A program made the position numbers and the translations under genes. Below the pieces are notes generated by a model, which was not told where the DNA came from, ran no database searches, and saw only the letters and a program-made list of their open reading frames with translations. A DNA stretch of 61,036 bases from an uncultured Lachnospiraceae bacterium (GTDB lineage: Bacteria > Bacillota > Clostridia > Lachnospirales > Lachnospiraceae). Shown piece after piece: positions 21,550 to 59,850 of this stretch; the stretch's first letter is position 1; every line of letters begins with the position of its first letter. Location: NCBI GenBank assembly GCA_965645705.1, contig CBFFWQ010000011.1, forward strand, positions 64,001-125,036, written 5' to 3'.

Positions 21550-21650
21550 TTTCTATACTCACGAACTTTTAGATTTGCCAGTAAAATACTTATTATAGTT
21601 GGTATATCTTTTTAGTTAGCGGTAAATTTTACAGCTCGTGAGTATAGCGA
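21550..21650 (-). promoter_or_regulatory. Inverted pair of conserved 12-13-mers (TATACTCACGAAC ... CTCGTGAGTATAG) upstream of 20558..21403
   Basis: Arms at ~21553-21565 and ~21637-21650; same element as at 32205-32282 and 59797-59850. Confidence 0.4.
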
Positions 21651-21651
21651 A

Positions 21652-21993
21652 TCAACTAAAGTGGTAAACAAAAAATTCCTTGATACTCTGTAAGACATTT
21701 TTACCACTATCCTCAAAACCTTTCAGTGGAGTGTCATCGTTCATGCCCTGTCCATAATCTTTTTCTACGAAAGAGTCTTCTGCCTTATCCAAACCAGAAT
21801 CAATTTTATTATTTATTTTCTCTCTAAGACCATTAATTTTCTTCTCACTATCATTAGAAAGATTTACGTCCACATTCTTTTCTGCCATTGTTTTTGTTTC
21901 TTCTGCAGAATCAAAAACACCCTGATCAGCACAACCTGTCAATAAAACTAAAAACAATACAGAACCTAAAGCTAATCTTCTCATACACTCCAC
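21652..21993 (-). CDS. Small lipoprotein
   Basis: Lipobox LLTGCADQ. Confidence 0.45.
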   Translation of the reverse strand: MECMRRLALGSVLFLVLLTGCADQGVFDSAEETKTMAEKNVDVNLSNDSEKKINGLREKINNKIDSGLDKAEDSFVEKDYGQGMNDDTPLKGFEDSGKNVLQSIKEFFVYHFS

Positions 21994-22042
21994 CTACCTT
22001 GAAACAGAATTTACAAATCTAAAGAATCATAAGTATAGCCTA

Positions 22043-22405
22043 CTACTTAATCACACCTTGCTCTATCATCTTTGCAATTTTCTCATCGGTAACAGGTTTT
22101 ATTAATTTATAGTCAACGGGATAAGTCGGACCTCCAACTACGAAAATTGCCTTCTCTTTTTCACAAATCGCAATACGCTTTGTATTAATATTTGCCTCAC
22201 TAAGAGCCATCAATATTGCTAATTGTTCATATTTAGTAGATGAAAGCTCATAATCATAAAGACAAGCTGATACTGCGTTATTAGCGACAAAATCAGCGAT
22301 CTCATGAATGTTATCTGTTACAATGCCAACCTCTATACCAGCGGCTTCTAAATTAGTCTGTAACACGAATGCGTTAAGACCTCGTTTCTGATAAACTGCT
22401 ACCAT
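22043..22405 (-). CDS. Receiver (CheY-like)-domain-like protein, possibly a pseudo-receiver
   Basis: C-terminal DYKLIKPVTDEKIAKMIEQ resembles the receiver alpha5 motif (D-YL-KP). No N-terminal acidic pair is present. Confidence 0.3.
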   Translation of the reverse strand: MVAVYQKRGLNAFVLQTNLEAAGIEVGIVTDNIHEIADFVANNAVSACLYDYELSSTKYEQLAILMALSEANINTKRIAICEKEKAIFVVGGPTYPVDYKLIKPVTDEKIAKMIEQGVIK

Positions 22406-22491
22406 AGTAACCCTTCTTTCTTTTTATTATTTGTTTACTGTTGCATTCACGAACCTTAAAATTTGCTAAACAAAAAGCTCGTACCTAAAGC

Positions 22492-23202
22492 CTATATCCT
22501 GATGCCATAAAGATCTTGAGCAAAAACTCTAAGGATAGGACTTCTTCTTAATTTAACAAGACTACGATGTACACGAAGTCTTGCTGCATCATACGTAATC
22601 CCAACTCTTTCTGCAATTACAGAAAATTCTACTCCTTCCACAAATCTTGCATACACCATAGCATAATTTTCAGGAGTTAATAATCTGCGTGCCTCTTCCC
22701 AAATCTGATTCTTGTACAATTGGCATTCTATGGCATCTAATTCTTCCATACCACACGACTTCACCACTGAATACTCTGTCTTGAAACAATCATCTATAGG
22801 TAGAATCTTTATCTTAGGTAATTCATCTCGTGCAAAAGTACTCGCTTCTCTCTCTGGTACATGAAATTGGCAAGTTGATTTCATTCTAAAATTATAAACA
22901 TAGCGTTTCATCCAGAACCTAAAGTAAGTAATAAATTTAATTCCTAAACCAAATTTAAAGCGTCTCACTGCACTAACCAATGCTAAATAAGAAACCTGCA
23001 GATAATCCTCATAATCCCTTGCATGATAATCAACTAATAGACCATACTCCTTAATACAATTTACAATAAAACCTAAATTCTGTCTATACAATAAAACAAG
23101 ATCCGTTGCTACTGCACGATTATCACTGGATTGAATTTTCCACACCAATTCAGCATTTTTATCAACGGTTTCCAAATTATTCTTTATCATTCTGACCTCC
23201 AT
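22492..23202 (-). CDS. RNA polymerase sigma-70 family factor
   Basis: Region-2-like YLQVSYLALVSAVRRFKF...FITYFRFWMKRYVYNF and region-4 HTH YAMVYARFVEGVEFSVIAERVGITYDAARLRVHRSLVKLRR. Confidence 0.6.
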   Translation of the reverse strand: MEVRMIKNNLETVDKNAELVWKIQSSDNRAVATDLVLLYRQNLGFIVNCIKEYGLLVDYHARDYEDYLQVSYLALVSAVRRFKFGLGIKFITYFRFWMKRYVYNFRMKSTCQFHVPEREASTFARDELPKIKILPIDDCFKTEYSVVKSCGMEELDAIECQLYKNQIWEEARRLLTPENYAMVYARFVEGVEFSVIAERVGITYDAARLRVHRSLVKLRRSPILRVFAQDLYGIRI

Positions 23203-23309
23203 ATTCCAGAAGGGTCACTTGGCAACTAACTAATACTGCCAAAATTTGGAAACCGTTCAATCTTTTGATAAAGTTTTTTAAAAATTATGATAGTTTGTGA
23301 AATTGGTGA

Positions 23310-23750
23310 CTATAAATACTGATTATCATAATACTGATTGTAAAACACTTGCACCTTTTCATAATCAATAAAAGAACCATCTTCTGTAAAAACAAGATTT
23401 ATATCGAAATTTTTTATGCACATCAATAAGGTTAGCTGCTTTACTCCATTTGGGGGAGCATCTGTATTAACTTCATTAATCAAATCAACTTTATGATCTA
23501 AAGCGAATACAGCGGCTTCTACACTTTCCGTACTTAAACGCTCTATCTTCAATCTTTTGTAAATTGCAGGACCAAATGATTTAATTCTATTTAATAGACT
23601 TTTACGACGCTCAAATTTATCACAATGACCAGAATCTAAAGGATTGACCACCCTGTTATTGGATTCATCAGCTTGAGCATTCTCTGCAAACAATTTACTG
23701 CCAACTTCAACAAAGGCATCACTTTCTTTTGCTTTATTCATAGTCCTCAT
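23310..23750 (-). CDS. Hypothetical protein
   Basis: 146-aa ORF. Confidence 0.45.
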   Translation of the reverse strand: MRTMNKAKESDAFVEVGSKLFAENAQADESNNRVVNPLDSGHCDKFERRKSLLNRIKSFGPAIYKRLKIERLSTESVEAAVFALDHKVDLINEVNTDAPPNGVKQLTLLMCIKNFDINLVFTEDGSFIDYEKVQVFYNQYYDNQYL

Positions 23751-23756
23751 GCCTTT

Positions 23757-26048
23757 CTATCGAATATCAATAATAAGATCCTCAGCACTCGTCTCGCATA
23801 AAAATACAAAATGCTTTTGTGATTGATTTTTATAAGCATCCAGCCTGCGGTAAAGTGCTTCAAACGCTCTCAAAAATTGTGAGAAGCTTCCATTAAAAAT
23901 AACACTACCAGCCTGCTGTACAATAATAGTAGTATCAGAAGTTTCCTTATATAAATTAAGCTGTGGTTTCTCTATACCTAAATGTTGTAAGAATTGTTTA
24001 CATACCATAATGAAAAATCTTGCATACATCTGCTTACTATTAGGCATAAATTTAAACCTAAGTAGCACACTTGCTACCTGAAAGAAACTTGTCTTTGTAA
24101 TCATCTCTTGATTAGAATCCCTAAAATAATAAAAAATACTGTCAAGTTTACTTGACAGCCCCTCACTCTTTACAAGTTGTTTTAATTTTTCTCTAAGCAT
24201 TCTTCCTGATTCTCCGTTCTTACTAATTCCAGGACCTTCCTTATCTTCAATAAGATCAGAGTCATTACCTTTCACTGGAGTCGTACTATCCAGTAAATAA
24301 TACAAATTATAAGAATCTAAATGTGACAATTCGATTGAAAATTTATGCTGACCTAAATCTTTACACCATGCCTGTAACGAACACAAAAGCTTGTCATTCT
24401 GTTGAATAGACTTAACACAATCTCTTGCATTACAAGCAATAGAATAACCATTTGAACTATCTAAAGGTTCAACGAAAAGCTCTCTACCAGAAGCTAAACA
24501 CCCTTTTAAAAACTTTTTTGAATAATCGTCTACGTTCATTATAAGCTCTAAATAATGCAAGGTTAAAAATGGCTTTTTATTCACAACAATAGAAACTATC
24601 TCCATGTCATAATTTCTGTTGCTTCTTACAGTAAATCCATTATTATTAGCTAAATAAATCAAGTAATCATGAACTAATTGTTTGATTGGAGGAAGTGTTT
24701 CATAACTTCCTACAAACGTAATTATTTGCAGATTTTTCTTCTTTGTTGTAGCTAAATCAATCTGCAAATACATGAAAATATCCTGATAAGAAATTCTATC
24801 TGCTATATAAGAATCATACACACTCTCAATAAGATTAGTATGTAAATCGTCTATATCCAAAATCAAATTCTCATGCTGAACTAAAGCATTAATCGTTGTG
24901 ACTTTATAACTATGTCTACTTAAGAACTCAAAATCGAAATCCTTGGCTAAGACAATAGTACTTAACAAATCAATACTCTTTGAATGTTCTGACAACATCC
25001 CCTGTGTTACATCGCCAAATGCGTAATCATTCTCCAATAACTTTTGCATTAATTCAGGGTATACACAAACATCCTGATCAAAACTTTCTCCATTTAATTT
25101 ACGATTTACATACGATTTAAATGTTTCAAAATTTTTGTAATAATTCAACACCTGCACTATATCAAAGCAATTGCTTGATTCTAAACTAAAGATCAGGTCA
25201 TTATAACTTGGACTAAGAGAATACTTAAAATAATGCTGCTTTTCAAAACATGGTGATTGATAATGAGATAAAAAGAAATCTATATCTTCCAAAGTAATTG
25301 GTCTTTTATCCAGCACGCAAAGTTTGATTTCATCCATACTTAAATCAAATATCTTTTCGTAAACAATATCATCTGCAACAATCTTATATTTAAGAAGTAA
25401 ATACTCTTTCAATACACGCTTTTCTACAGCTTCAAAAGTGTCCCCTTCCCAAAATGCAATCGCTCTTGAATTAGGATAAAGTTGCTGATAAACGCTAATC
25501 AAGAATTCCTCAAATTCGTAATCATTTGCCGAATCTAAAGGAACTCCCTTTGAAAATGCAAAAGCTATAAAATCATTTTCTAGGTCGGTTCTATCCCATG
25601 AATCATAATATTCTCCTGGATCTTCTTCTTCTCCTACTCTTAAATTAAAATTTAATACAAGTGGTTCTTGCATAAAATAACTAAAATTAGCTGTATTACC
25701 ATTTGCTGGAGTATGATCACCATCAAAAGTATCTATAGAAGATGCAGGTTCATCCTGCATACTGACACTTTGTAAATCATTACTTCCGTATCTTTCACTA
25801 AGATTACTTGCAAAATTTCCCCACTTTTTTGCTGCACTACTTGAACGACTGGAATTAGATTTCTTTCGCTGCAACTGTTCTGTAGAAATTCTACTCTTAC
25901 TAATACCCTTAATAGCACTATCCCAAGCCGATTCGCTACTTTTGGAGGATCCTGGAAGACTATACAATGAATCCTCTGTATCATCTTCTATTGTAGGGAC
26001 AAATGCATTAGACATATTTGCTCTTTCAATTCCACCTGGCATAATCAA
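23757..26048 (-). CDS. Large hypothetical protein (763 aa)
   Basis: Long uninterrupted ORF. Confidence 0.55.
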   Translation of the reverse strand: MIMPGGIERANMSNAFVPTIEDDTEDSLYSLPGSSKSSESAWDSAIKGISKSRISTEQLQRKKSNSSRSSSAAKKWGNFASNLSERYGSNDLQSVSMQDEPASSIDTFDGDHTPANGNTANFSYFMQEPLVLNFNLRVGEEEDPGEYYDSWDRTDLENDFIAFAFSKGVPLDSANDYEFEEFLISVYQQLYPNSRAIAFWEGDTFEAVEKRVLKEYLLLKYKIVADDIVYEKIFDLSMDEIKLCVLDKRPITLEDIDFFLSHYQSPCFEKQHYFKYSLSPSYNDLIFSLESSNCFDIVQVLNYYKNFETFKSYVNRKLNGESFDQDVCVYPELMQKLLENDYAFGDVTQGMLSEHSKSIDLLSTIVLAKDFDFEFLSRHSYKVTTINALVQHENLILDIDDLHTNLIESVYDSYIADRISYQDIFMYLQIDLATTKKKNLQIITFVGSYETLPPIKQLVHDYLIYLANNNGFTVRSNRNYDMEIVSIVVNKKPFLTLHYLELIMNVDDYSKKFLKGCLASGRELFVEPLDSSNGYSIACNARDCVKSIQQNDKLLCSLQAWCKDLGQHKFSIELSHLDSYNLYYLLDSTTPVKGNDSDLIEDKEGPGISKNGESGRMLREKLKQLVKSEGLSSKLDSIFYYFRDSNQEMITKTSFFQVASVLLRFKFMPNSKQMYARFFIMVCKQFLQHLGIEKPQLNLYKETSDTTIIVQQAGSVIFNGSFSQFLRAFEALYRRLDAYKNQSQKHFVFLCETSAEDLIIDIR

Positions 26049-26317
26049 ACCTCCTCTGCTAATCCGACAACATCAATAATTCTAAACAACTACCAGAGCA
26101 ATAAAAATGCACAACAATACAAAATAAACCGTAAATACTCTCACAATCTAAAGAACTATATAAAAATAAATTTATACTATTGATAAGTAAAATACCTAAA
26201 CAAACACTATAAATTTGTTTTGTATCAATTCCTTAGAAAAGCTTGTAAGTAGAGTACTGATAACAACAAAAAGATTCATTACGCTCTTAACGCAATGAAT
26301 CAGCAATTTAGAAGTGC

Positions 26318-27088
26318 CTAATAAACACAAATTAAGCTATAATAAACAGCACCATAATCTACATAACTATCTATTCGATTTTGTTCTATCTTCTCGCAAT
26401 GTATTATTTCGCCATAATGATTGTGCAAATACAAATACACAATAAAATCACTAGAATGCTTAATAATACCCTTAATCCTGTTAATACCCTTTTTCTTTAA
26501 GGAAACCTTTACAAACTCATTATCCAATTTGTAATCTAAGGGGTGTAATACACTAAAGTCAGCATAAACCAAAGCATCAGGTGAAATAGAATCAAAATAC
26601 ACCTCACCTAGAGCCAAATACTTTGCATCAATAGGAATTGTAAAAGAAAGTGTCTTAAGCTCCCTAGGATTATAATAATCTAAAGAAACTGTATCCGAAC
26701 ACAATAATTCCTTATTCTCACCATAAAACTCTATCTCTACACTCAAAAACTTTCCTAACAAGGAATGACTTGTATCAAAATTAATGCTTGCTCTATTACA
26801 CCTAATAGAAATGCCATAGAACCTTACAAAATCATCCTCATAAATAAGAACATTATTATCATAAACTAAAGGAATAAGGTCAGTATCAAGTCTTACATCA
26901 TACCCTGAAAATACCTCGTTCTCAAAATAATTAGCATAATTATCCATACTCAATTGCATAGAATCAGTTGCTTCCGAATACAATACCTCTTTGCTAACAT
27001 CAATTTTACGAGAATCTAAAGTACAGCCTACAAACAAACTACTTACTACTAACAGCAACGTACTCACGAACCGTAGATTCTTTCTCAT
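26318..27088 (-). CDS. Lipoprotein
   Basis: Start moved to internal Met: MRKNLRFVSTLLLVVSSLFVGC (lipobox). Confidence 0.5.
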   Translation of the reverse strand: MRKNLRFVSTLLLVVSSLFVGCTLDSRKIDVSKEVLYSEATDSMQLSMDNYANYFENEVFSGYDVRLDTDLIPLVYDNNVLIYEDDFVRFYGISIRCNRASINFDTSHSLLGKFLSVEIEFYGENKELLCSDTVSLDYYNPRELKTLSFTIPIDAKYLALGEVYFDSISPDALVYADFSVLHPLDYKLDNEFVKVSLKKKGINRIKGIIKHSSDFIVYLYLHNHYGEIIHCEKIEQNRIDSYVDYGAVYYSLICVY

Positions 27089-28754
27089 TGTCAAACACCT
27101 TATTCCCAATAACAGTTATGCAACGAACTCTCTCCATCTTCCTATTAAAGAAAGTCACTGAATGCTCTGATTCAAATTTCAGTCTATAGTCTAATAAATA
27201 CAATAACAGTCCATACTTCGGAGCAAATACATAACCGTAACCATACTTAAGCCCTTTTCTAATGTATTCACGCAAAGAAGTGTACTCTTTTGTCTTTTCA
27301 TTAGAAAGAATTGGTACATCTGGTAGTACACTTAAAGCTGCAATACACGAACGTCTTATTAACAAAAGATCAGGAAAAGCGTCCAAATCTGTTCTTGTTT
27401 TATCATTAAGTCTAAGTTCTATCTCATCAGCATGACTAATGCCATGCCTGATAAACATCTCTATGAAAGGAGTACTTTGATTAGAATGCTTGCAACCACC
27501 CAACAAAACATTATGAAGAGACTGTTTATTCCGTAGCCACTCTGTACGAAATCCATGTGACCTCATAGACCGAAAGAAAGACAATGGAGATACACCATTT
27601 ACCTCATTCTCAGAATAACCTAAAGAACGGAGACGATTAATCTCTTCCTCATCTTGAGAATACTTATAAGCATACAAATCCTGTATCGCTGAAAAAGATA
27701 AATTACGCAATAAACTGTTTACATTATACCTCTGCAATGCCAGATCTGTAAGAAATTTACTTGCTTCGTCATCAATATCCTGAAATAGAAAATCGTAAGG
27801 TACAAAACCATTGATACACTTAATAAGGCACTTCAACTTAACTTCACTCAAATCATTCTCCATTACTATGGAGAAATCCATCTTATTACGAATCATAGTA
27901 TTTATAGCAGAAACCTTAGATGAAGCAAGGCTACCCAACTCGTAAATAAATGCATTCATGTTTATCATAGTATCTGGATCCCATATCCAAATATTAACCA
28001 TCTCATTTGATGCATAGGAGAACTTAAAAAAGCCATTCTCCCTAAAACTCTTATAACTCTTATAAGGCATCTTATAACTCTCTTGATGGAGTTCCGCTAC
28101 TTGATAACCCATAGTCATCTGGTCATAAACTAAAGTAGTCTCCTGTAAAAATACTGGCTGCATATCTTTATCAATACCATCATCTAAAGAGCTGTCTGGT
28201 AGTCGAACAAAGAAAGTTTGTCCAGTCAAATACTGTCGTTTCAGCTTTTCACAATACACAGGATCGTTAAAAGTTTTCGTCCATCCTATAAAATTCTCCA
28301 TACCACCTTCTATTGGATACAAAACCAAAGCAGGTCTATCTGATACAGGACCAAATGTTGGTCTTATGTTTGCTGCAGCTGCAACATCAGGATAATCTGA
28401 TAACAAAGTAACTGTTGTTAGAAATTTATTAACCGAATTTATTTTTTGCTTAGAAGCAGTCATTTCATCATAGTTTTGCAAGTTCTTTACGAAATTGCCA
28501 AAACCAATTAAAATACCATAATACTCAGCACTCCACATACTATCAGTATCTTCTAAGCTAACCTGCTGATAATAATTAGTCTCATAAATCTCCGAAGAAC
28601 CTTTGACACGCTCCGCTATGTCTTTATCTTCAAGAAACAAATAACAATCTTTTCTCCGAAAATTACCAGAACCCTTATAATTTAATTCTACCCAGCCTCT
28701 ATCTAATAAAAGTTTTGTTATAGTAGGTAGATACTTATTCAAATCCGCTCGCAT
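27039..28754 (-). CDS. Hypothetical protein (571 aa)
   Basis: Long ORF. Confidence 0.55.
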   Translation of the reverse strand: MRADLNKYLPTITKLLLDRGWVELNYKGSGNFRRKDCYLFLEDKDIAERVKGSSEIYETNYYQQVSLEDTDSMWSAEYYGILIGFGNFVKNLQNYDEMTASKQKINSVNKFLTTVTLLSDYPDVAAAANIRPTFGPVSDRPALVLYPIEGGMENFIGWTKTFNDPVYCEKLKRQYLTGQTFFVRLPDSSLDDGIDKDMQPVFLQETTLVYDQMTMGYQVAELHQESYKMPYKSYKSFRENGFFKFSYASNEMVNIWIWDPDTMINMNAFIYELGSLASSKVSAINTMIRNKMDFSIVMENDLSEVKLKCLIKCINGFVPYDFLFQDIDDEASKFLTDLALQRYNVNSLLRNLSFSAIQDLYAYKYSQDEEEINRLRSLGYSENEVNGVSPLSFFRSMRSHGFRTEWLRNKQSLHNVLLGGCKHSNQSTPFIEMFIRHGISHADEIELRLNDKTRTDLDAFPDLLLIRRSCIAALSVLPDVPILSNEKTKEYTSLREYIRKGLKYGYGYVFAPKYGLLLYLLDYRLKFESEHSVTFFNRKMERVRCITVIGNKVFDNEKESTVREYVAVSSK

Positions 28755-29123
28755 TAAATCCCTGCCTTTCCCAAATATTAAAAATTTAAAACCAGACTCA
28801 CTAGCTGTAAAATTTACTACTAACTGAAAAGATATACCAACTATAACAAATATTTATTGGCAAATCTAAAACTCGTGAGTATATGCTAAACTTTCTTAAT
28901 GCATTTATTGCAAAAAAATAAAAGAGGTCAGTTAAGACTTCTTCTAATAACTTTCAAACTATTGTTTCAATCCACTCAGCAGTTAGGAGCAAGACAATTA
29001 CGTGGATTGCTTCATGACAAAGGATACCGCTTTCGCTCCGCCAGCTACTACCGTTACACTTGTTCCTAGCAATTCCTCCACCTACCTCAGAGGAAGAGGA
29101 ATCCTTACTGTTAATTGTTGAAT

Positions 29124-29668
29124 TTATTTTCTCCGATTATTTCCTAAAAAAGCATTTACTGGTTTTGCATCTAAAGAACTTGCATCAGTGTCACTTGTCT
29201 TTTTCTTCTTAGAAAAAATCTTATCATAATATTTTCTACTTGCTTCTGAATAATTATACTCTTGTTCTGCAATCTCATGTGCAGTAGTCACAGAATAATC
29301 GGGATTTTGCAACAGTATGGTAATCTCATACAACTCATGTTGGAGCATAAGTACATCATGAGGTTCTATATGTGCAAAATTTTTTCTGTCAATCGTCCCC
29401 ATGACTCAGCCATAGCATAATCAGGATCAAACGTTCTAAACCTACCGTTCCTACGCCAATGACAATTTTCAAAAATATAATCCCTTACAATCATAATCTG
29501 TTCAATAGAAAAATCGGTACGATCTGCAATTTTCGCACAATCAATAAATTTATTCCTGTTTCTAAACTGTTCGTATATTTTTTTGCAATATCTAGTGACT
29601 CAGGATCTCTATCAGGATCGTGAGCACCACTTTGCAAAAAATTCCTTTCATTCTCTTGCATAATCTAC
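29124..29668 (-). pseudogene. Possible frameshifted gene (three frame segments)
   Basis: The minus strand reads MQENERNFLQSGAHDPDRDPES...LNRL*, then in another frame IDCAKIADRTDFSIEQIMIVRDYIFENCHWRRNGRFRTFDPDYAMAESW, then the annotated ORF MGTIDRKNFAHIEPHD.... The junctions are in A/T runs. Confidence 0.3.
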
Positions 29669-29901
29669 CCCCACATTACTGAATAAATTTCTGGCAAAAA
29701 ACCGTCTTCTTCCATCGCAAGTAATAAATTTCCAGTAGCTTTAAAAACCTCCCAATCACGGTCATCTGGTGAAATCTCCCATCTTCTTTCCTTTCTAAAA
29801 ATTTTTACATCAAAATACCTGTTTGTTTTTGGATGATACGCCTTTGCCCAAATAAAATCATCATCATACCTAATTTCCATAAAATCAACCATTTTACACA
29901 C
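29665..29901 (-). CDS. Small hypothetical protein (78 aa)
   Basis: ORF MCKMVDFMEIRYDDDFIWAKAYHPK...; a degenerate internally deleted second copy follows at ~29960-30150. Confidence 0.4.
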   Translation of the reverse strand: MCKMVDFMEIRYDDDFIWAKAYHPKTNRYFDVKIFRKERRWEISPDDRDWEVFKATGNLLLAMEEDGFLPEIYSVMWG

Positions 29902-29959
29902 TCCTTTACTGTTCTAATTTTTAAACTATTCTTATGAAATCTTTTACAATACGTAAGGA

Positions 29960-30150
29960 TTCAGGATTTTCCCCAGAATTTCAAACACCACTTTGCAACA
30001 AATTACCCCCACATTACTGAATACTCTTCTGGCAAAAAATCATCTTCTTTCCTTTCTAAAAATTTTTACATCAAAATACCTATTTATTCTTGAATGATAC
30101 GCCTTTGCTCAAATAAAATCATCATACCTAATTTCTGTAAAATTAACCAT
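29960..30150 (-). repeat. Degenerate, internally deleted tandem duplicate of the 29600-29905 unit
   Basis: Near-identical strings (caccactttgcaa...cccccacattactgaata...ctttctaaaaatttttacatcaaaatacct...gatgatacgcctttgc...aaataaaatcatcat...cctaatttc) with a ~70-bp deletion and point changes. Confidence 0.6.
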
Positions 30151-30384
30151 AGTAAAAACTCATTTACTATTTTAATGGATCTCTCATATAATGAAGACGT
30201 AATTTACCTCTTGTTCTTGCATCATACTGCATACCACCTATTAGTATCTCTACATCAGCAGAATCATTATTAGGTTCAATTTATTTTAATACTTTTTTAC
30301 ATTAAAATAAATACTTTGCTTAATAATTTTTCTTTACAAAATAATCTATAATCTAAAGTGTGGAGTTCTGTTATAAAAACCACA

Positions 30385-31269
30385 CTAATTATCTACCGAA
30401 TCTGTCGGTGAAACTGAAACACTGGAAGAATCGTCAGAAGGAACAGAATCACCTGAATCAGCAATAGAAGAATTACCTGAACTGGAAGTACCAGAAGATG
30501 GATTCAAAACACTCTCTACCAAAGAAGCATCCTGTAATTCACGATCTATGAAAAAATCAATACCTCGTGTAATAATAAGAGGACGCATGAATACATCTAT
30601 TAAAATACAAACAAAAGCTTGCATAATACACAAAGAATAAAGTAAACCTAAACGACCCTGACCTAAAGTAAGAGTATAAGTGAAATTACCACGAAACAGA
30701 AATACGCCTAAAATCTGACAAATACTATAAACCCCAAAATCTTTCCAATCATAAGTAAGACACTCATTTAGATTTTCTTTGAATAATGCTAAAGCTTTCG
30801 CATACACACTCACATACTTATCCTCGGGTTGACCATATTTATAATAATACTTCATTACGCATACATTAATAGAGTCATAATACAATAAATTTAATAAAAC
30901 ACGTGGCTGGATAATTTTCCAAGCAATCCCTTCCTTACTCGGAATACCCTCTGCAAACTGCTTGCTAACGAAATTACTGCTAATGGTCACTAACCTAAAG
31001 GTTTTTAATGGAGATAAATCAGGCATAGCAGAACCTTGTTTCCCTTTTAAAGAAATTGACCATAACCAATACAAGACAGAATACCGTATTAAATAAAATA
31101 CTGCTACGCCAAATACAAAGAAAATAACTTCCCCGAAGAACCCAATCAAACTCGTATTAACACCGATAGCACGAATCATAAATGACGCACCGAAGTACGT
31201 ACACGCATACACCAGCAAGAAACTCACTAGTTCAATAAATGCACACAAAATACTATTCAATACACCCAT
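30385..31269 (-). CDS. Polytopic membrane protein with a Ser-rich C-terminal tail
   Basis: Multiple hydrophobic helices. The C-terminus is SSGTSSSGNSSIADSGDSVPSDDSSSVSVSPTDS. Confidence 0.55.
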   Translation of the reverse strand: MGVLNSILCAFIELVSFLLVYACTYFGASFMIRAIGVNTSLIGFFGEVIFFVFGVAVFYLIRYSVLYWLWSISLKGKQGSAMPDLSPLKTFRLVTISSNFVSKQFAEGIPSKEGIAWKIIQPRVLLNLLYYDSINVCVMKYYYKYGQPEDKYVSVYAKALALFKENLNECLTYDWKDFGVYSICQILGVFLFRGNFTYTLTLGQGRLGLLYSLCIMQAFVCILIDVFMRPLIITRGIDFFIDRELQDASLVESVLNPSSGTSSSGNSSIADSGDSVPSDDSSSVSVSPTDSVDN

Positions 31270-31280
31270 AATATACTTTC

Positions 31281-31799
31281 CTATTTTACACGTTTAAACT
31301 TTGGATAAAAGGTAATAAATGCTTTACCCAGCACATACGACTTATAAATATAAGGTTGTTCCCAATACCTTGCATCAGATGAATTAGATCTGTTATCACC
31401 TAAAAACAAATAACAATCGTCTGGCACAGTAAACGTCCCTGTATAATCAAAATTATTCTTCACATAATCTTCGACTAGCAGCTCACCGTCCACATACACA
31501 GTACCATTACGTATTGCTATTGTTTCTCCAGGGAGACCTACCACACGTTTTATTAAATTAATACGCTTTTCAGCAGAATAAAACGCTATTACATCGCCAC
31601 GTTCAATGGTGTCCTCCCCAACACGTAACAAAATAACTTTGTACCCTGCACCTATTGTTGGTGACATACTACCTGTTGGAACATTGATAACAGAAAATAA
31701 AAAAATCCTACCAATAATTAAAACTATACTTACTACAATTAAAAACGAAACTAAAAATACTTTAGCACTTCTCTTAAGTTTTGTTATGATACTAGTCAC
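31281..31799 (-). CDS. Signal peptidase I (S26 family, SipW/LepB-like)
   Basis: N-terminal TM. Box B PTGSMSPT (catalytic Ser), box D KRVVGLPGE (catalytic Lys), box E GDNRSNSSDAR. Confidence 0.8.
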   Translation of the reverse strand: MTSIITKLKRSAKVFLVSFLIVVSIVLIIGRIFLFSVINVPTGSMSPTIGAGYKVILLRVGEDTIERGDVIAFYSAEKRINLIKRVVGLPGETIAIRNGTVYVDGELLVEDYVKNNFDYTGTFTVPDDCYLFLGDNRSNSSDARYWEQPYIYKSYVLGKAFITFYPKFKRVK

Positions 31800-32176
31800 C
31801 TACTTCCTGCCATCTGTACTTCAAAACTTGCACTCAGTATACTGAACATAAATTGACAAAAATTAAATTCTGCAAACTTATTTTCGCAAACAAGATTAAG
31901 AAATTCAAAATGCCTTGAAAATTCTTTTAGTATAAAAAAAGCTGTTGTATTCTGTAACAAAAATTCTTTATAACTCTTTTCAAAAATTTCCACCAAATAA
32001 GTGGAACTATTCTTGTTTTCTGCAATCATAGCCTTTAAAAAAATAGGTGGTTCTAACTCAGGAATTTGAATTAAATTATCTTTATAATTGCCACAAATTT
32101 CTGTAGATACAGCAAAACCTAAAGAATTTTGCTGAGTTGTCGAGAAATAATTTTCCGAATTAAAAATAACAATCAA
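31796..32176 (-). CDS. Hypothetical protein
   Basis: 126-aa ORF. Confidence 0.4.
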   Translation of the reverse strand: MIVIFNSENYFSTTQQNSLGFAVSTEICGNYKDNLIQIPELEPPIFLKAMIAENKNSSTYLVEIFEKSYKEFLLQNTTAFFILKEFSRHFEFLNLVCENKFAEFNFCQFMFSILSASFEVQMAGSR

Positions 32177-32204
32177 CTTCGTCTCCCCCCTTCAAACAGA
32201 ACTA

Positions 32205-32282
32205 AAGAACTGTACTCACGAACCACAAAACTAAAGAGCAAACAACTTACTTGATAGAACTAAAGGCTCGTGAGTACGACTG
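32205..32282 (-). promoter_or_regulatory. Inverted pair GTACTCACGAACC ... GGCTCGTGAGTAC upstream of 31796..32176
   Basis: 13-bp arms about 45 bp apart; three CTAAAG copies between and around the arms. Confidence 0.4.
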
Positions 32283-32342
32283 CTTTGATGGCTTTTGAAA
32301 CACATTAAAAAGATAACTAGAAACTCTATACCATCAAAGTAA

Positions 32343-42606: not shown

Positions 42607-42712
42607 ATTGAACCACACAAACTACGCAGAATCAATTGCATTCGCCAGCCACAAATCTGTAACTCACGAACCTTACTATCAGAGTACTGCCAAAGAGAAC
42701 TACAATTCAGGA

Positions 42713-47645: not shown

Positions 47646-48035
47646 CCTCTTTACCCCTTTCTAAAGGAATTGCATAAAATAAATTCACACTTATTTCTAT
47701 ACTTACAAAATGTAAAATCTTACGAATAAAATAGCAACCCCATCACAATACCTGCAAAGAATTACAGGCTTGTTCGTATTACCATTAACAATTCTCTGCA
47801 GTACCTATTATTACACCATATAACGATAGTAACACGATACATTTTGTATTGTTTTCTTATGCTTGTAAATACTGGAATACAACAAGGAGAGACAACAATT
47901 TACTACAGAACCCAGTCATAAAACAGTAAAACTCACCAGCACACCAAGTATTATGACTGCCTTCATACCAAACAACAGTACTTTAAAGTCACAATACACA
48001 AAATCGTGCAGCAGTATTAATACTACACGACTAAA

Positions 48036-48614: not shown

Positions 48615-48637
48615 ACACTGACCTAAAGGTTACTAGA

Positions 48638-50156: not shown

Positions 50157-50275
50157 AATTCTCTCCTTTTTCAAAAATTGCAATGCCATAAAACATTGCA
50201 TACGTAATTTACAGTTTTTATTCCACGTGAAAAATACTATTTTCTTTTAAAAAAAAAAGAAAAAACATAATTTTT

Positions 50276-50316
50276 TACGCAAAAAAGCACCGAAATCTTT
50301 TAAAATTTCGATGCTA
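50276..50316 (-). terminator. Rho-independent terminator after the 50406..53936 gene
   Basis: On the minus strand GCATCGAAAT-loop-ATTTCGGTGC is followed by TTTTTTGCG. Confidence 0.55.
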
Positions 50317-50405
50317 CAAAATACTGCTATCAGACGAACAAAATCCAAAATTCTTAGGTCATGAAGCATTATAATAAGGAAATAATCTAAAGGTGCAAGC
50401 AAGAG

Positions 50406-53936: not shown

Positions 53937-54070
53937 GTAACCACCTGCCTTTCAAGAAAGCAATAAACTCTACACTCATACAAGACAATACCCTGATGCC
54001 TGTCTAAAGATGTAACAGGGCATAAATAGAAAACTCCGATACCTATCTAAAGGCATCGGAGTACACAAAT

Positions 54071-56071
54071 TTACAAATTCATGCGATCTCTTGTATTGAA
54101 ATTCTCTTCTATTTCTAACGGGAGGAAAGTTTTAAAAATAGCTTTATCCGAATGCAATCCAGTATCGTACTGAATTGCAAAGCAATTATTATACTTCGTA
54201 GATTCTGGATCAGCAATTGCTTTCAACATACCTTCTATCGGTTTACAGCCAAAATCAGCAGATAAAATCTTAATATCTTCCTCATTCATTTTTCCAATAA
54301 TACGTGTAGTTATATTGGATTTTATCTGAGCCAGTTCCCCATTTCTAAAAATACTAATGGCATTAAATAAAAGAAATACTGATACATTAGAACTACGAGA
54401 ACCTGTTACACGTGAACTGATATAACTAATTAATTTCTCTGATTGCTGACAACGCTGTAATTCCTCATAAAAAGCAAAGGTATGCAATTTCTTACGCTTA
54501 CGAAGTTCCTGCTTTTTACTATCAAGGAACTGCACCATAAATACTTTAAGCGTATCCAAGTTATCCAATTCACCACCAGCATTCTTATTAAAAGAATAAA
54601 TAACTAAAGGAGAATTAAGTATCTCTCCTACTGTAATTTCATTACGAAATAAATATGAATACAAACCCTCTGGTGCAAAATAATTAGCACACCTACTCTT
54701 AATTAAATTACACATCTTATGCTGCTCTTCATTGAAGGAGTTGGAACTCATTAATTCGTCAATAATCTCTAACAAAGCACCATACTTCATTGACCTTGTT
54801 TTATAAAAAGTAGCTGGATTTTCTGCAATCACTCCATTCTTGGAATACAATTTATTAATTGCCAAACGTAATACTGCTTCCAAATCAGTAGGATTACCCT
54901 CTATTTCCATTAAATTAACTATGATACTCATAAGCATAATTGTCCCATTAACAGCTGTATTAAACATATCTAAGCAATTACTCTCATCACAATCTAAGTC
55001 ATCTAAACGAAGAGTATTAACAAAACGAGAGTCTGCCTCATCCATACTGATAACCAATGTATCAACAAATGGTGACAACTTACACCATTCATTTCCTTTC
55101 AAATCTAAAGCGGAAGCATGAACTCCAATACCAATAGCATTAACACATACATTAAATGCGGTATACGTTTTACCACAACCTGTCTTACCGCAAAGCATAA
55201 TGACTTGTGCTGCTGAACTCTCAAAAAAATTAATCATCAAAGGGAGCTTATTTGTCCATTCAATACCGAGCATTAAACCATTACCACCAACTAATCCTTG
55301 TGTTTTATTTGGCATAAATAAACTCAAATTTTGTTCACTCATTAACATTGGATAAGTTTTCTTCATCTCCTGTTGCTTATAAACTGCTGGACAATAATTG
55401 TTAAGATAAGGAGTAAGTTCACCTGTAATATCTCCATAAGCAACTTTGAACTTATCCAGTAAACCATACAGCTCGCCTTCGTACAAATTTAATTCTTCAA
55501 TATCAGGAGCACTTGCTTGCACAAACATATAAGTAAGGAAAAATGCTTGATTGCCAGTAACGCTCTCAAAAATATAATCATAGCTATCCTTATTATCCCT
55601 GATGGCTAGCAAATGTTCTTTGTTAATACTTACTTTACTTCCATTACCGACATTAAACTCTGCACCGAGCATACGTTGGTCGTCTGACAATTGCGTGTAA
55701 ATTTGGGCATAACGATCAAACTGTCTTGTTGCCGAAGTAAGTTGTGTTGTAAATTTTCTACTTCGCACATCAATTCGTACTGGCTTATTATAAGTATGCA
55801 CTATTGTTTTGACTTTGGGGTGCAATTTAAACATTTGGGTACGAATGTGATAAGGGAGATTATTTTCAAAATGTACGGGTACTGCTAGAATAGTCCATAC
55901 TCTTGTAACCCTTTTTCTTGTAAGGAATCTATCAAAAACTGGTTTCAGACCTAAAGAAGTAATCTTCTCTTTTACAATCAAATTACCTTTTGTCAACCAG
56001 TTAGCTATGTACTCTGCATACACGGTTGCTAATAAATTCTTTTCTTTCTTTGCCATGCAACGATGCACCAC
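54071..56071 (-). CDS. P-loop ATPase, VirB4/TrsE-like conjugation ATPase candidate
   Basis: Walker A LCGKTGCGKTY at about residue 300 of 666. It lies immediately upstream of the wall hydrolase, as in conE-cwlT-type arrangements. Confidence 0.4.
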   Translation of the reverse strand: MVHRCMAKKEKNLLATVYAEYIANWLTKGNLIVKEKITSLGLKPVFDRFLTRKRVTRVWTILAVPVHFENNLPYHIRTQMFKLHPKVKTIVHTYNKPVRIDVRSRKFTTQLTSATRQFDRYAQIYTQLSDDQRMLGAEFNVGNGSKVSINKEHLLAIRDNKDSYDYIFESVTGNQAFFLTYMFVQASAPDIEELNLYEGELYGLLDKFKVAYGDITGELTPYLNNYCPAVYKQQEMKKTYPMLMSEQNLSLFMPNKTQGLVGGNGLMLGIEWTNKLPLMINFFESSAAQVIMLCGKTGCGKTYTAFNVCVNAIGIGVHASALDLKGNEWCKLSPFVDTLVISMDEADSRFVNTLRLDDLDCDESNCLDMFNTAVNGTIMLMSIIVNLMEIEGNPTDLEAVLRLAINKLYSKNGVIAENPATFYKTRSMKYGALLEIIDELMSSNSFNEEQHKMCNLIKSRCANYFAPEGLYSYLFRNEITVGEILNSPLVIYSFNKNAGGELDNLDTLKVFMVQFLDSKKQELRKRKKLHTFAFYEELQRCQQSEKLISYISSRVTGSRSSNVSVFLLFNAISIFRNGELAQIKSNITTRIIGKMNEEDIKILSADFGCKPIEGMLKAIADPESTKYNNCFAIQYDTGLHSDKAIFKTFLPLEIEENFNTRDRMNL

Positions 56072-56136
56072 CTTTATTCAAATACTAAAATAAAAAAATA
56101 GTGTACGGTTAAATACACTATTCTAAAGAAAAATGC

Positions 56137-57012: not shown

Positions 57013-57127
57013 AATGATAATCCTTTCTATTATAAAACAGAGATATTCTATGATAACCTACCTACAAAAACTAAAGGGAGTATAAGCTATCAGAATGAGT
57101 GGCAGCAATAGCAGCAGGAATAAAGAA

Positions 57128-58387
57128 CTAGATTGCTATATCTGAAGAGTCTATTAGTTTATAAATTTTTTGGCAAACGGGGCGAGAAGATAAAAATAAA
57201 AACTTATCTTCATCGTGCTCTATTTTATCTAATTCCTTAAAATCTCCCCAATACAATTCTGACTCTGGGTCGCCTGAAATAGTCATACTTGGCAATAAAC
57301 TAAAGGTTTCAAAATACTTTGGATTCCTACAAATTGGTAGCTGAATCATAGAGCCTGACAAAACAATATCTTGTACAGACTTACAATCTATTACCAAAAG
57401 CAAATCTAAAGAAGATTTATTAGAAAGCAATAAATCAAAAATTTCCAAATAATTACCTGACTTTGCAATGAAATCATTGGCAACTACATCACTATTGGTA
57501 AATGAATTATGAATGATTTTATAATAGGAAGGAAGCATTTGTAATCGCCTTGAAGTTTTACTATCATACAAAATAACTACTTTGACACTCATCTTACATT
57601 GTAATTTAACCACATCAAATAATACAGAAATAAGAGTAAAGAAGTTATCTACTAACTCGAACTCCTTTAAATAAACAATCTTTGGGCGATTCGGATAATT
57701 TGATAAAATAACTTTATCGTAGATATCCTTTGTAATGATACTCTCATACTGCAATAAAGTTTTATTTAATTTACGTGCATCCTCTAGTATACTCGCATAA
57801 CCACGCAGATACTTTTGATTTTCTCTTTCAAATAAGGCACATTGTTTTTCCAATTCACTATTCTTTTGCTCTAATTCTGTAATCTTATTCTTGTACTCTT
57901 CTACTATACTATAAAGAAAAGAATACGTATCTGCCAACTCTACTACTTCTTTCGTATAAAGCTCACTATGCTTCTTAATAAGATTTACATCATCTAAAGC
58001 AGAACGAAAATGCTTATTTGAGACTGGATCTGTCTTGTAAGCATTATCGTTATACAATGCGGCTGTAATAATTTTTATATCTAAATACTCAATACTGCAC
58101 TCATAAATCCGCACTAAATCTTTAACACTGTTATACCAGAATGAATCATCTCCGATGTAAATAAACTCTAATCCCAATAAATTTTTGTACAATTTTAACT
58201 GGGATACTACATTAGGCAAACGCATAATTCCTTCCAAAACAATGCAGATCTTAGTCTGTTTTACAATCTCCTCTGTTATTTCTGTTAAGGAATTAATAAA
58301 AATGGCTCCCTGCTGCGTGAGATCCATAATGTTATTCTTCACTATCTTTTTACTCACGTGGTCGTAAAGAATAATAAAACTATTCAT
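57128..58387 (-). CDS. Coiled-coil hypothetical protein
   Basis: Start moved to MNSFIILYD after AAAGGCGGTG. Confidence 0.5.
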   Translation of the reverse strand: MNSFIILYDHVSKKIVKNNIMDLTQQGAIFINSLTEITEEIVKQTKICIVLEGIMRLPNVVSQLKLYKNLLGLEFIYIGDDSFWYNSVKDLVRIYECSIEYLDIKIITAALYNDNAYKTDPVSNKHFRSALDDVNLIKKHSELYTKEVVELADTYSFLYSIVEEYKNKITELEQKNSELEKQCALFERENQKYLRGYASILEDARKLNKTLLQYESIITKDIYDKVILSNYPNRPKIVYLKEFELVDNFFTLISVLFDVVKLQCKMSVKVVILYDSKTSRRLQMLPSYYKIIHNSFTNSDVVANDFIAKSGNYLEIFDLLLSNKSSLDLLLVIDCKSVQDIVLSGSMIQLPICRNPKYFETFSLLPSMTISGDPESELYWGDFKELDKIEHDEDKFLFLSSRPVCQKIYKLIDSSDIAI

Positions 58388-58400
58388 TTTAACACCGCCT

Positions 58401-59744
58401 TTATGCAGAGGATACTGCAAAAATACTATCATACAAATCTCTGTCTACATTCAAATCATCAAAATGGATACTATCCACGATTCGTGTTTTGAAATTCAAG
58501 AATGATTTTACTTCTTTATAATTGTAATACGCTATATTTCCAAATAGCTGTACTTCTTTATTGAGGAAGATTGTTAATGGAAAAGAATAAAAAATCTCAA
58601 TTAATTTTGTGCGTGCCGCCTCCAAATTACTTTTTAAAGGTGTAATGAAATAAAATACATTTGTAATTTTATTCTTATGCGTCCTACATAAATACTGAAT
58701 TATTTCTTTTTCAGCAACAATGAACACCTCATCTAAATTACTATAATCAAGCTTTTCCAAAAAGCTAAAGAGAAAGTCTTTGATAACTTCAAATTCTTTA
58801 TCACTGTTTGGGGTACAAACATTTATCACGCCTTGCTTTAACTCACTTTCTGAAAGTAAATTAAACATAGAGACTTCTTTAAAGTTACTACCACCTATTT
58901 CCAATAAAGACACAATATCTCTATTTTTAGCAAAATTAAGTACAAGAGTACACTTATCTGCATCTATCGCTGAAGAAGCTAAAGCAGAAGCCCAAATACT
59001 CTTTCCTGATTTTGCGTCACCCATAAACAAAGTAATATGTGTCTTAAGCAATACACCAGAATCCTGCAAAGTTCCGATAACGGGATTATCATAACTTGCT
59101 ATATCTTTATCATCTAAAGATTCGAATTTCTGCCCTGACTCTATCTTTAGAGCATTTGCCTTTGCTTTATCGTACTTATAAACACTCTCATGCTGAAAAG
59201 GTTCAATAATATAAGAACCTGCTTTTTCTGGCACATAAGCTTTGTTAGCTGGATTCCCCTTCTCATACCTATAAAATTTACTTTTAGTATTATGGAAATC
59301 CTCTACTTGGGTTGTGCCAAGTAGATAACTATTAATTTCCTGAAAGGAAAGTTTACCTTTTACTGTATTGACGCTGTACACGATATTAAATCGTTTGCCA
59401 GTTTCTTTAGCTTCTAACTTACATTCACTCATTACAGCCTGAAAATACTTACTTGCTTCAATAGCATCTTCACTTTCCTTTTGTATAAAAACAATTTCCT
59501 TTGTTTTAAAAAAGCCATCATTTACAATCAAATTTTGTAAAATAGACATATCTAATCGACTTTTCATTTGAGCAGACTGATAAACATAAAGAAATTTATC
59601 TACCGTAATAATAGAATTACGAATTTCTTCTTCATACTCATACAGATTTTTATAAGCGAAGTCTACCTTGAACACGCCAGAACTTCCTAAATGCCTCGCT
59701 AATTCGTTGGTCTGTTCACCAGCTACTATCATTAACTTAATCAT
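58401..59744 (-). CDS. P-loop NTPase
   Basis: Walker-A-like FMGDAKSGKSIWASALA. Confidence 0.45.
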   Translation of the reverse strand: MIKLMIVAGEQTNELARHLGSSGVFKVDFAYKNLYEYEEEIRNSIITVDKFLYVYQSAQMKSRLDMSILQNLIVNDGFFKTKEIVFIQKESEDAIEASKYFQAVMSECKLEAKETGKRFNIVYSVNTVKGKLSFQEINSYLLGTTQVEDFHNTKSKFYRYEKGNPANKAYVPEKAGSYIIEPFQHESVYKYDKAKANALKIESGQKFESLDDKDIASYDNPVIGTLQDSGVLLKTHITLFMGDAKSGKSIWASALASSAIDADKCTLVLNFAKNRDIVSLLEIGGSNFKEVSMFNLLSESELKQGVINVCTPNSDKEFEVIKDFLFSFLEKLDYSNLDEVFIVAEKEIIQYLCRTHKNKITNVFYFITPLKSNLEAARTKLIEIFYSFPLTIFLNKEVQLFGNIAYYNYKEVKSFLNFKTRIVDSIHFDDLNVDRDLYDSIFAVSSA

Positions 59745-59796
59745 ACAAGCTACCTGCTTTCTACTAATGCAAAAATTACTGAATGCAAACTATACT

Positions 59797-59850
59797 TACG
59801 AACTATAAAATTTACCACTATCTGAAGGTTCGTGAGTATAAATAATCACT
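59797..59850 (-). promoter_or_regulatory. Inverted pair ATACTTACGAAC ... GTTCGTGAGTAT upstream of 58401..59744
   Basis: Two arms about 25 bp apart. Confidence 0.4.

What the first reader, a model, noticed from the sequence alone, without database searches (positions are those of the whole stretch)
21550..59850. Conserved 12-13-mer TATACTCACGAAC recurring as inverted pairs in intergenic regions
Near-identical arms occur as inverted pairs at 21553/21637, 32212/32268 and 59803/59838 (spacers of about 25-70 bp). Single copies occur at 22443, 27060, 28865 and 42659. All are in spacers upstream of minus-strand genes, except 27060, which lies in a gene overlap. The sequence is far more GC-rich than its surroundings. 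It looks like a shared operator or promoter element, possibly for the element-encoded sigma factor at 22492-23202 or a repressor. It could also be hairpin-forming single-strand promoters of a transferred strand, or a miniature repeat.
Basis: seen in the sequence. Interest (0 to 1): 0.65.

Follow-up and report, generated by a model that had tools for sequence, protein, structure and literature searches.

The report
Small mobile inverted-repeat element (MITE) copies
The recurring 13-mer is the inverted end of a roughly 90-bp non-coding jumping element that duplicates a TA where it lands and is scattered between the genes of a large, uncultivated gut-bacterial plasmid-like element; it is an ordinary kind of selfish DNA, not a shared promoter or operator.

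Summary
TATACTCACGAAC-like 13-mers occur 8 times at up to 2 mismatches, against 1.6 expected, and form inverted pairs in intergenic spacers.

The pairs are the terminal inverted repeats of a miniature inverted-repeat transposable element (MITE). The structure is TA, then TACTCAYGARC, then about 67 bp, then GYTCGTGAGTA, then TA. The evidence:
- The copies at 21554-21646 and 28793-28883 are one 90-bp element, 89% identical, in opposite orientations.
- Three clean filled/empty site pairs between near-identical relatives each show an exact TA target-site duplication.
- Internally deleted copies (35-46 bp), decayed copies and solo arms also exist.
- The copies evolve at or above the background rate, with no compensatory base-pair changes.
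- No Rfam family matches.

The element resembles Correia and RUP elements, which are IS630/Tc1-mariner-style and TA-duplicating. The autonomous parent insertion sequence was not found.

Verdict: a new member of a known kind, of low to moderate interest.

A more surprising thing was noticed in passing. The octamer CTTTAGNT occurs 155 times on the coding strand and 4 times on the other. It is about eight times over-represented relative to synonymous-codon shuffles and is under nucleotide-level purifying selection. Its function is unknown.

The parts
21554..21646 (.). Full-length MITE copy. TA (21554-21555), then the 89-bp element (21556-21644: TACTCACGAAC...GCTCGTGAGTA), then TA (21645-21646). 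The left arm (LE, containing TTTAGATTTGCCA) is on the + strand, so it is anti-oriented to the genes.
   Evidence: nhmmer E = 1.8e-25. The 98%-identical relative L006 carries an internally deleted 35-bp version at the same site.
28793..28883 (.). Full-length MITE copy, inverted relative to the 21.6-kb copy. The element is 28795-28881. An intact TA lies at 28882-28883. The right arm is degenerate (GCTAGTGAGTC) and its flank is TG.
   Evidence: 89% identity over 90 bp to 21554-21643 on the opposite strand; the site is empty in L006 and L014 (AGCATAGTTTT) and filled in the window and L012, with TA on both sides.
59791..59840 (.). Internally deleted copy. TA, then a 46-bp element (TACTCACGAAC..GTTCGTAAGTA), then TA.
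   Evidence: right-arm match 59792-59827, E = 0.003.
32211..32278 (.). Divergent 64-bp family member (TACTCACGAAC...GCTCGTGAGTA). Its flanks are TG and CG, not TA. Its interior differs from the other copies and carries three coding-strand CTTTAGTT octamers.
   Evidence: left-arm match, E = 0.05; hairpin of -27 kcal/mol.
13943..14009 (.).
   Evidence: (weak left-arm hit 13988-14010). The L006 orthologue keeps GCTCGTGAGTT.
22442..22470 (+). Solo left-arm remnant (TGCATTCACGAACCTTAAAATTTGCTAA).
   Evidence: It is present at the same place in L006 and L014, with 3 of 13 core positions differing between the window and L014.
22014..22038 (-). Solo left-arm remnant (TATACTTATGATTCTTTAGATTTGT).
27059..27085 (+). 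Left-arm-like sequence embedded in the overlap of two genes. On the coding strand it reads GAATCTACGGTTCGTGAGTACG, encoding ..STVREY..
   Evidence: It is conserved in L006, L012 and L014 as coding sequence.
42659..42671 (+). Core-only match with 3 mismatches. Membership of the family is uncertain.
47697..47725 (+). Decayed right-arm-like remnant (coding-strand reading: GATTTTACATTTTGTAAGTATAG).

Best explanation
The 13-mer is the outer part of the terminal inverted repeat of a non-coding MITE. The repeat has 11 perfect bases plus about 13 imperfect ones.

The full-length form is about 89 bp: TACTCAYGARC-CTTTAGATTTGCCA...GGTAAATTTTACA-GYTCGTGAGTA. It inserts at a TA dinucleotide and duplicates it.

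The most likely mechanism is cut-and-paste mobilisation in trans by a TA-specific DDE transposase of the IS630/Tc1-mariner type, encoded elsewhere in the host or in the element. The arms would be the transposase binding sites.

What is shown:
- The inverted repeats.
- The TA duplication at three filled/empty site pairs.
- Dispersal to at least 8 loci, in both orientations.
- Internal-deletion derivatives, solo arms and decay.

What is inferred:
- The identity of the transposase.
- Any effect on neighbouring genes. The hairpin of -25 to -31 kcal/mol that would form in read-through mRNA, and the outward T(T/G)G(C/T)AA-N17/18-TATAnn promoter-like geometry formed by each end plus the duplicated TA, are possible side effects, not demonstrated functions.
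For: 1; 21554-21643(+) and 28883-28796(-) are 89% identical over 90 bp. An nhmmer profile of six copies finds full copies at E = 1e-18 to 1e-25.
2. There are three independent filled/empty comparisons.
   - L014 reads CTTTAA(T)TA[element]TAGCATTC; the window and L006 read CTTTAAGTAGCATTC.
   - the window and L012 read AGCATA[element]TAGTTTT; L006 and L014 read AGCATAGTTTT.
   - L019 reads CTTTCTTA[element]TAATTA; the window at 43.59 kb reads CTTTCTTAATTA.
3; the only three metagenome hits to the arm pattern are further copies, all flanked by TA. Contigs L016 and L020 break at copies, as expected of a repeat.
4. L006 carries a 55-bp internal deletion of the 21.6-kb copy. This resembles the 107-bp and 155-bp Correia size classes (PMC2229807).
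5; no compensatory pairs among 30 predicted pairs except one, and the covariation term is +2.45. Substitutions break the pairing. This fits protein-bound ends rather than a selected RNA or DNA structure.
6; no Rfam family matches.
7; none of the 40 window ORFs scanned against Pfam is a transposase with these ends, so the copies in the window are non-autonomous.
Against: - No autonomous insertion sequence with matching ends was found. Genome contigs gave 0 hits and viral contigs gave 0 hits. No inverted arm pair spaced 300-3000 bp encloses a transposase-like ORF in any held DNA.
- The copy number seen is modest, about 11 loci in 61 kb plus a few more in relatives.
- One filled site has a G-to-T difference next to the TA.
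- The 32.2-kb member lacks TA flanks.
- TA duplication is typical of IS630/Tc1-mariner elements but not exclusive to them.
Confidence: 0.85

Rival explanations
1. The arms are a shared promoter or operator. They would be recognised by the element-encoded sigma-70-family protein (22492-23202) or by a dimeric repressor, and would co-regulate the downstream minus-strand genes.
For: - All copies but one are intergenic.
- Each intergenic site has one arm pointing at the downstream gene, 35-150 bp from its start.
- The arm plus the TA gives T(T/G)G(C/T)AA-N17/18-TATAnn, a -35/-10-like geometry.
- A sigma gene sits among the copies.
Against: - The element is absent upstream of the same intact genes in close relatives.
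- The two full copies are in opposite orientations.
- In 4 of the 5 distinct full-length insertions whose gene direction is known, the better promoter-like arm (left arm) points antisense, away from the downstream gene.
- The solo arm at 22442 differs at 3 of 13 core positions between the window and L014, against about 12% background divergence.
- A new insertion exists in the L014-L017 lineage, whose sigma gene is called as two ORFs.
- The consensus promoter scan does not flag the arms.
Confidence: 0.06
2. The pairs are REPIN or BIME-type elements, that is, doublets of REP sequences moved by a RAYT (Y1) transposase. Alternatively they are hairpin single-strand promoters or priming sites of a transferred DNA strand.
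For: - The pattern of inverted doublets plus singlets is how REPINs and REP singlets look.
- Long hairpins form, at -25 to -31 kcal/mol with z-scores of -5 to -6.
- The replicon carries conjugation-type genes.
Against: - An exact TA duplication is seen at three sites. It is not expected for Y1/RAYT or IS200/IS605-type single-strand transposition.
- The individual arms are not themselves palindromic.
- No RAYT was seen in the window.
- A single-strand promoter should have one fixed orientation and be clustered near oriT. These copies are in both orientations and spread over 46 kb.
Confidence: 0.05
3. The hairpins are selected RNA-level elements in the long co-directional transcripts, such as terminators, stabilisers or RNase III sites.
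For: All the genes are co-directional, so the copies are probably transcribed. The predicted stems are stable.
Against: - No T-tract follows the stems, and the scan found 0 terminator-like sites.
- There is no covariation, and substitutions break the pairs.
- The copies show presence/absence polymorphism.
- No Rfam family matches.
Confidence: 0.03

Closest known systems
Correia / NEMIS elements of Neisseria (MITEs; Buisine 2002, Mazzone 2001, reviewed in PMC2229807)
   Same: - About 100-150 bp and non-coding, with roughly 24-bp terminal inverted repeats.
- TA at both termini and a target-site duplication.
- Size classes that differ by an internal segment of about 50 bp.
- Intergenic, in either orientation, and forming long stem-loops if transcribed.
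- Ends that can create outward promoter-like sequences.
   Different: - No sequence similarity.
- A different host: a low-GC, Clostridia-like extrachromosomal element.
- Far fewer copies have been seen.
- No IHF site, promoter activity or RNase III processing has been shown here.
RUP (repeat unit of pneumococcus), thought to be mobilised by IS630-Spn1 (Oggioni and Claverys 1999; PMC2229807)
   Same: A Firmicutes MITE of about 107 bp that inserts at TA and is intergenic. For RUP, the inference that an IS630-family transposase acts in trans is the same model proposed here.
   Different: The RUP inverted repeats match a known insertion sequence. Here no parent insertion sequence was found, and the sequences are unrelated.
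REPIN / REP-RAYT systems
   Same: Inverted doublets plus decayed singlets in intergenic DNA, forming hairpins.
   Different: REPINs have no TA target duplication and are built of REPs that are themselves palindromic and associated with a RAYT gene. None of these features is met here.

Membership tests
MITE (non-autonomous DDE transposon derivative) | Small size (under about 300 bp) and no coding capacity | tested here: met
   The element is 35-89 bp.
MITE (non-autonomous DDE transposon derivative) | Terminal inverted repeats | tested here: met
   The ends have 11 perfect bases (TACTCAYGARC) plus about 13 imperfect ones.
MITE (non-autonomous DDE transposon derivative) | Target-site duplication shown by filled versus empty sites | tested here: met
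   A TA is duplicated at three independent sites.
MITE (non-autonomous DDE transposon derivative) | Multiple dispersed copies and insertion polymorphism | tested here: met
   There are at least 8 distinct insertion loci, 6 of them with full-length copies, across the window and L012, L014, L019 and L020, in both orientations, plus remnants.
IS630/Tc1-mariner-derived MITE specifically | A cognate autonomous insertion sequence with matching inverted repeats that encodes a DDE transposase of this family | tested here: inconclusive
   None was found in the window, in 23 loci, or in the GTDB representative genomes, IMG/VR and JGI metagenomes by arm pattern. The Logan and ENA assemblies that hold this replicon cannot be pattern-searched.
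Sigma-factor promoter or repressor operator regulon | Fixed position and orientation relative to the regulated genes, with conservation in orthologous spacers | tested here: not met
   Copies are present or absent and lie in opposite orientations among close relatives. Solo arms drift at or above the background rate.
REPIN / RAYT | No target duplication, arms that are palindromic REPs, and an associated RAYT gene | tested here: not met
   A TA duplication is present, the arms are not self-palindromic, and no Y1 transposase was found in the window.
Known structured RNA (Rfam) | A match to a curated covariance model, or covariation that supports a structure | tested here: not met
   There were 0 gathering-level hits in the window and only chance-level hits at 21450-21750. 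There is no compensatory change.

The most novel reading that the evidence does not exclude
The MITE may be more than a passenger. Its conserved subterminal octamer (GAGC-CTTTAGAT-TTGCC) is a copy of the replicon-wide polar signal CTTTAGNT, which occurs 155 times on the coding strand and 4 times on the other and is under nucleotide-level purifying selection.

The motif is kept in 8 of 10 left arms that are co-oriented with the genes. It is kept in 0 of 4 that are anti-oriented. This was counted by eye; not all arms are independent, and the Fisher p is about 0.015.

If CTTTAGNT is the recognition site of a replicon-encoded DNA machine, it would be a new and unusually dense and polar architecture-imparting sequence. 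Candidate machines are a primase-helicase acting on the lagging-strand template, a KOPS/SRS-like translocase guide, or a Chi-like protective signal. The MITE family would then be shaped by it, or born from it.
Probability: 0.2. Interest if true: 0.75.

Novelty: new member of a known kind. Interest (0 to 1): 0.3.

Why it matters
For the finding itself, the result removes a false regulon. The repeated 13-mer should not be used to infer a sigma-factor or repressor network.

It also documents an active MITE family in a poorly known group of very large, low-GC gut extrachromosomal elements. Related contigs are 150-340 kb, and distant relatives are binned to Lachnospiraceae.

Practical consequences:
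- The copies break short-read assemblies.
- They mark recent insertion polymorphism that is useful for strain tracking.
- They predict an as yet unseen TA-specific transposase in the host.

The by-product, the CTTTAGNT polar octamer, may matter more than the finding. It shows that synonymous codon choice across the replicon is bent to maintain one strand-specific DNA or RNA word roughly every 390 bp.

Tried and rejected
1. Near-identical DNA in annotated collections. There was no megablast match for 21000-33000 in the phage or plasmid collections. Blastn with the 111-bp element gave no plasmid match and only chance 21-27-nt phage matches.
2. Exact-protein look-up of the window's sigma factor: not on record. 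A viral contigs relative of the sigma factor: none.
3. Paired-arm and single-arm pattern scans. Viral contigs gave 0 hits and genome contigs gave 0 hits twice.
4. The IS1182/IS5-like insertion sequence at 9153-10772 as the parent. Its ends (TTTTTGTAAAATAT) are unrelated to the MITE ends.
5. The 571-aa ORF bracketed by the arms at 27059 and 28881 as a transposase. It has no Pfam hit, and it is syntenic in relatives that lack the 28.8-kb copy, so the bracketing is coincidental.
6. Terminator and consensus-promoter scans gave nothing specific at the arms.
7. The Hodor megaplasmids (PMC12934698) as the identity of the replicon. Rejected, because Hodors are 44-47% GC and this family is 28-38% GC.
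8. Clade-specific polar words in the distant relatives L004, L021 and L023. Their top skewed k-mers are mostly explained by amino-acid and codon composition.
Full report
**Context**

The window is about 35% GC. It has a strong, uniform GC skew, and almost every ORF is on the minus strand.

Pfam hits and precomputed Pfam calls on relatives:
- A sigma-70-family protein (22492-23202).
- A CHC2 zinc-ribbon primase-like protein.
- A DnaB-like helicase and an SNF2-type helicase.
- An Hsp70-like protein.
- GreA-like, NERD, signal peptidase, NlpC/P60 and SleB-like hydrolases.
- Big_2, transglutaminase-like and PARG-like proteins.

The 666-aa ATPase at 54071-56071 has no Pfam hit itself. A few of its homologues carry DUF87 or TraG P-loop domains.

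Its homologues come from metagenome contigs of 150-340 kb with conserved gene order. One distant homologue is labelled Lachnospiraceae MAG.

The replicon is therefore a large, uncultivated, low-GC, Clostridia-type extrachromosomal element with conjugation-like genes. It is not a Hodor megaplasmid, because Hodors are 44-47% GC.

**The observation**

TATACTCACGAAC with up to 2 mismatches occurs 8 times, against 1.63 expected. None of 100 shuffles reaches 8.

Inverted pairs sit at three places:
- 21554-21566 / 21634-21646
- 32211-32223 / 32266-32278
- 59791-59803 / 59828-59840

Weaker single matches are at 22442, 27059, 28871 and 42659.

**What it is**

Conservation extends far beyond the 13-mer. 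The stretches 21554-21643(+) and 28883-28796(-) are one 90-bp sequence, 89% identical, in opposite orientations.

I fetched relatives through the ATPase and the sigma factor. This gave 17 loci at 84-99% protein identity.

Comparing orthologous spacers gave clean presence/absence polymorphisms:
- Upstream of the PARG-like gene, L014, L015, L016 and L018 carry the element. The window and L006 do not. The filled site reads CTTTAA(T)TA[TACTCATGAGC...GCTCGTAAGTA]TAGCATTC, and the empty site reads CTTTAAGTAGCATTC.
- At the 28.8-kb site, the window and L012 are filled and L006 and L014 are empty. The filled site reads AGCATA[..]TAGTTTT, and the empty site reads AGCATAGTTTT.
- A metagenome contig, L019, carries a copy in the spacer that is empty in the window at 43.59 kb. 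The filled site reads CTTTCTTA[..]TAATTA, and the empty site reads CTTTCTTAATTA.

Each time, the difference is the element plus one extra TA. This is a 2-bp TA target-site duplication. Every full copy found is flanked by TA on both sides.

Other forms of the element:
- L006 has a 35-bp version of the 21.6-kb copy, produced by a 55-bp internal deletion.
- The 59.8-kb copy is a 46-bp deletion derivative.
- The 32.2-kb copy is a divergent 64-bp member without TA flanks.
- Decayed pairs or solo arms lie at 13943-14009, 22014-22038, 22442-22470, 27059-27085 (inside coding sequence) and 47697-47725.

This anatomy is that of a MITE: small, non-coding, with terminal inverted repeats and a TA duplication, dispersed, polymorphic and decaying.

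**Tests of the rivals**

Promoter or operator:
- The arms plus the TA do give a T(T/G)G(C/T)AA-N17/18-TATAnn geometry.
- However, the element is dispensable upstream of the same intact genes in close relatives, and it occurs in both orientations.
- In 4 of the 5 distinct full-length insertions whose gene direction is known, its better promoter-like arm (left arm) points antisense.
- The solo arm at 22442 differs at 3 of 13 core positions between the window and L014, against about 12% background divergence.
- The orthologous window and L012 copies differ by many substitutions and by indels.
- The L014-L017 lineage, whose sigma gene is called as two ORFs, still gained a new copy.

Structured RNA or single-stranded DNA:
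- The copies fold into long hairpins of -25 to -31 kcal/mol, with z-scores of about -5 to -6.
- An alignment of six copies shows essentially no compensatory change, and the covariation term is positive.
- No terminator-like tail follows the stems.
- Rfam has no match.

REPIN/RAYT or IS200/IS605-type mobilisation does not produce a TA duplication, and the arms are not themselves palindromes.

**Mechanism**

The best-supported mechanism is trans-mobilisation by a TA-specific DDE transposase, as inferred for RUP with IS630-Spn1 and as generally assumed for Correia elements (PMC2229807). The TA duplication and the inverted repeats are shown. The transposase is inferred.

I could not find the transposase:
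- None of the 40 window ORFs scanned against Pfam qualifies.
- The only insertion sequence in the window, IS1182/IS5-like at 9153-10772, has unrelated ends.
- Arm-pattern scans of the GTDB representative genomes and IMG/VR gave nothing.
- The JGI metagenome scan gave only more MITE copies.

Possible side effects remain untested. These are hairpins in read-through mRNA, outward promoters, and contribution to a protein C-terminus at 27059.

**Comparison and novelty**

The element works like Correia/NEMIS and RUP elements. It shares no sequence with them and sits on a different kind of replicon. It is a new family of a well-known kind. Interest in the finding as posed is low to moderate.

**Noticed in passing: the polar octamer CTTTAGNT**

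Counting k-mers in the spacers exposed a much stranger feature.

- Counts and distribution. CTTTAG occurs 170 times on the coding (minus) strand and 18 times on the plus strand, against about 20 expected on each. Of the 170, 155 have T at position 8. CTTTAGNT is therefore 155 against 4, about one per 390 bp, spread evenly along the window.
- Frames. In ORFs it sits in two reading frames: 101 as NCT-TTA-GNT and 16 as NNC-TTT-AGN-T.
- Intergenic density. It is denser still in intergenic DNA, with 26 copies in 6.1 kb.
- Codon-shuffle test. Synonymous-codon shuffles give 14.1 +/- 3.5 in coding sequence, against 117 observed.
- Tripeptide encoding. Of the [SPTA]-L-[DVGA] tripeptides, 70% are encoded by exactly this word, against about 7% expected.
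- Conservation against relatives. At 88-90% nucleotide identity, the seven specified positions mismatch at 2.4-4.1%, against a 10.5-12.1% background. The N position mismatches at 7-14%, close to the background.
- Foreign DNA. The largest motif-free gap is the foreign insertion sequence.
- Distribution among relatives. Close relatives share the polarity; L006 has 55 against 0. Relatives at 46-55% identity have little or none of it.

The MITE's left arm carries one copy of the octamer. Its function is unknown. Candidates are a primase-helicase recognition word on the lagging-strand template, a KOPS/SRS-like translocase guide, a Chi-like signal, or an RNA-level signal.

Noticed in passing
Whole window (for example 22483-22490, 32200-32207 and 60897-60904 on the minus strand); also L001-L003 and L006-L020: An extremely polar, dense octamer, CTTTAGNT. 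It occurs 155 times on the coding strand and 4 times on the other, against about 7 expected, or roughly one per 390 bp.
- In coding sequence there are 117 copies, against 14.1 +/- 3.5 in synonymous-codon shuffles.
- 70% of [SPTA]-L-[DVGA] tripeptides are encoded as NCT-TTA-GNT.
- It is denser still in spacers, with 26 copies in 6.1 kb.
- The specified positions evolve 3-5 times more slowly than the background, and the N position evolves at close to the background rate.
- It is absent from the foreign insertion sequence and nearly absent from relatives at 46-55% identity.

Function unknown. Candidates are a primase site, a KOPS/SRS-like guide, a Chi-like signal or an RNA signal.
   Followed up: partly
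L020:14-1923: A solo MITE left arm (14-58) is followed by about 1.8 kb of higher-GC DNA and then a complete MITE copy (1830-1923). The higher-GC DNA carries an ATPase-like gene on the other strand that appears disrupted (ORFs 340-1446 and 1415-1573). This is either a copy broken by an insertion or a MITE-flanked passenger segment.
   Followed up: no
L014:9726-10420 (also L015, L016, L017): The sigma-70-family gene, intact at 232-236 aa in the window and in L006-L013, is called as two overlapping ORFs (92-93 aa and 139 aa) in four contigs from three samples. This could be a frameshift, a pseudogene or programmed recoding.
   Followed up: no
window:9031-10970: An IS1182/IS5-like insertion sequence (DDE_Tnp_1_6 transposase, 9153-10772) is the only substantial plus-strand gene. 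It coincides with the longest stretch that lacks CTTTAGNT.
   Followed up: partly
window:29403-30384: A spacer of about 1 kb has no ORF over 80 aa. It contains an internal direct duplication: GGTTGATTTTATGGAAATTAGGTATGATGATGATTTTATTTGGGCAAAGGCGTATCAT.. is repeated about 260 bp apart. Relatives carry two or three genes of 75-80 aa here, so this is a variable region with possibly degraded small genes.
   Followed up: no
window:1-4640: No complete ORF of 80 aa or more lies on the minus strand, yet the GC skew and the CTTTAGNT polarity are normal (12 copies). This is presumably the 3' part of a very large minus-strand gene that runs off the left end of the window.
   Followed up: no
L001:255-2338: The 98%-identical relative carries an IS605-type TnpB element (Cas12f1-like_TNB) just beyond the point that corresponds to the right end of the window.
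   Followed up: no
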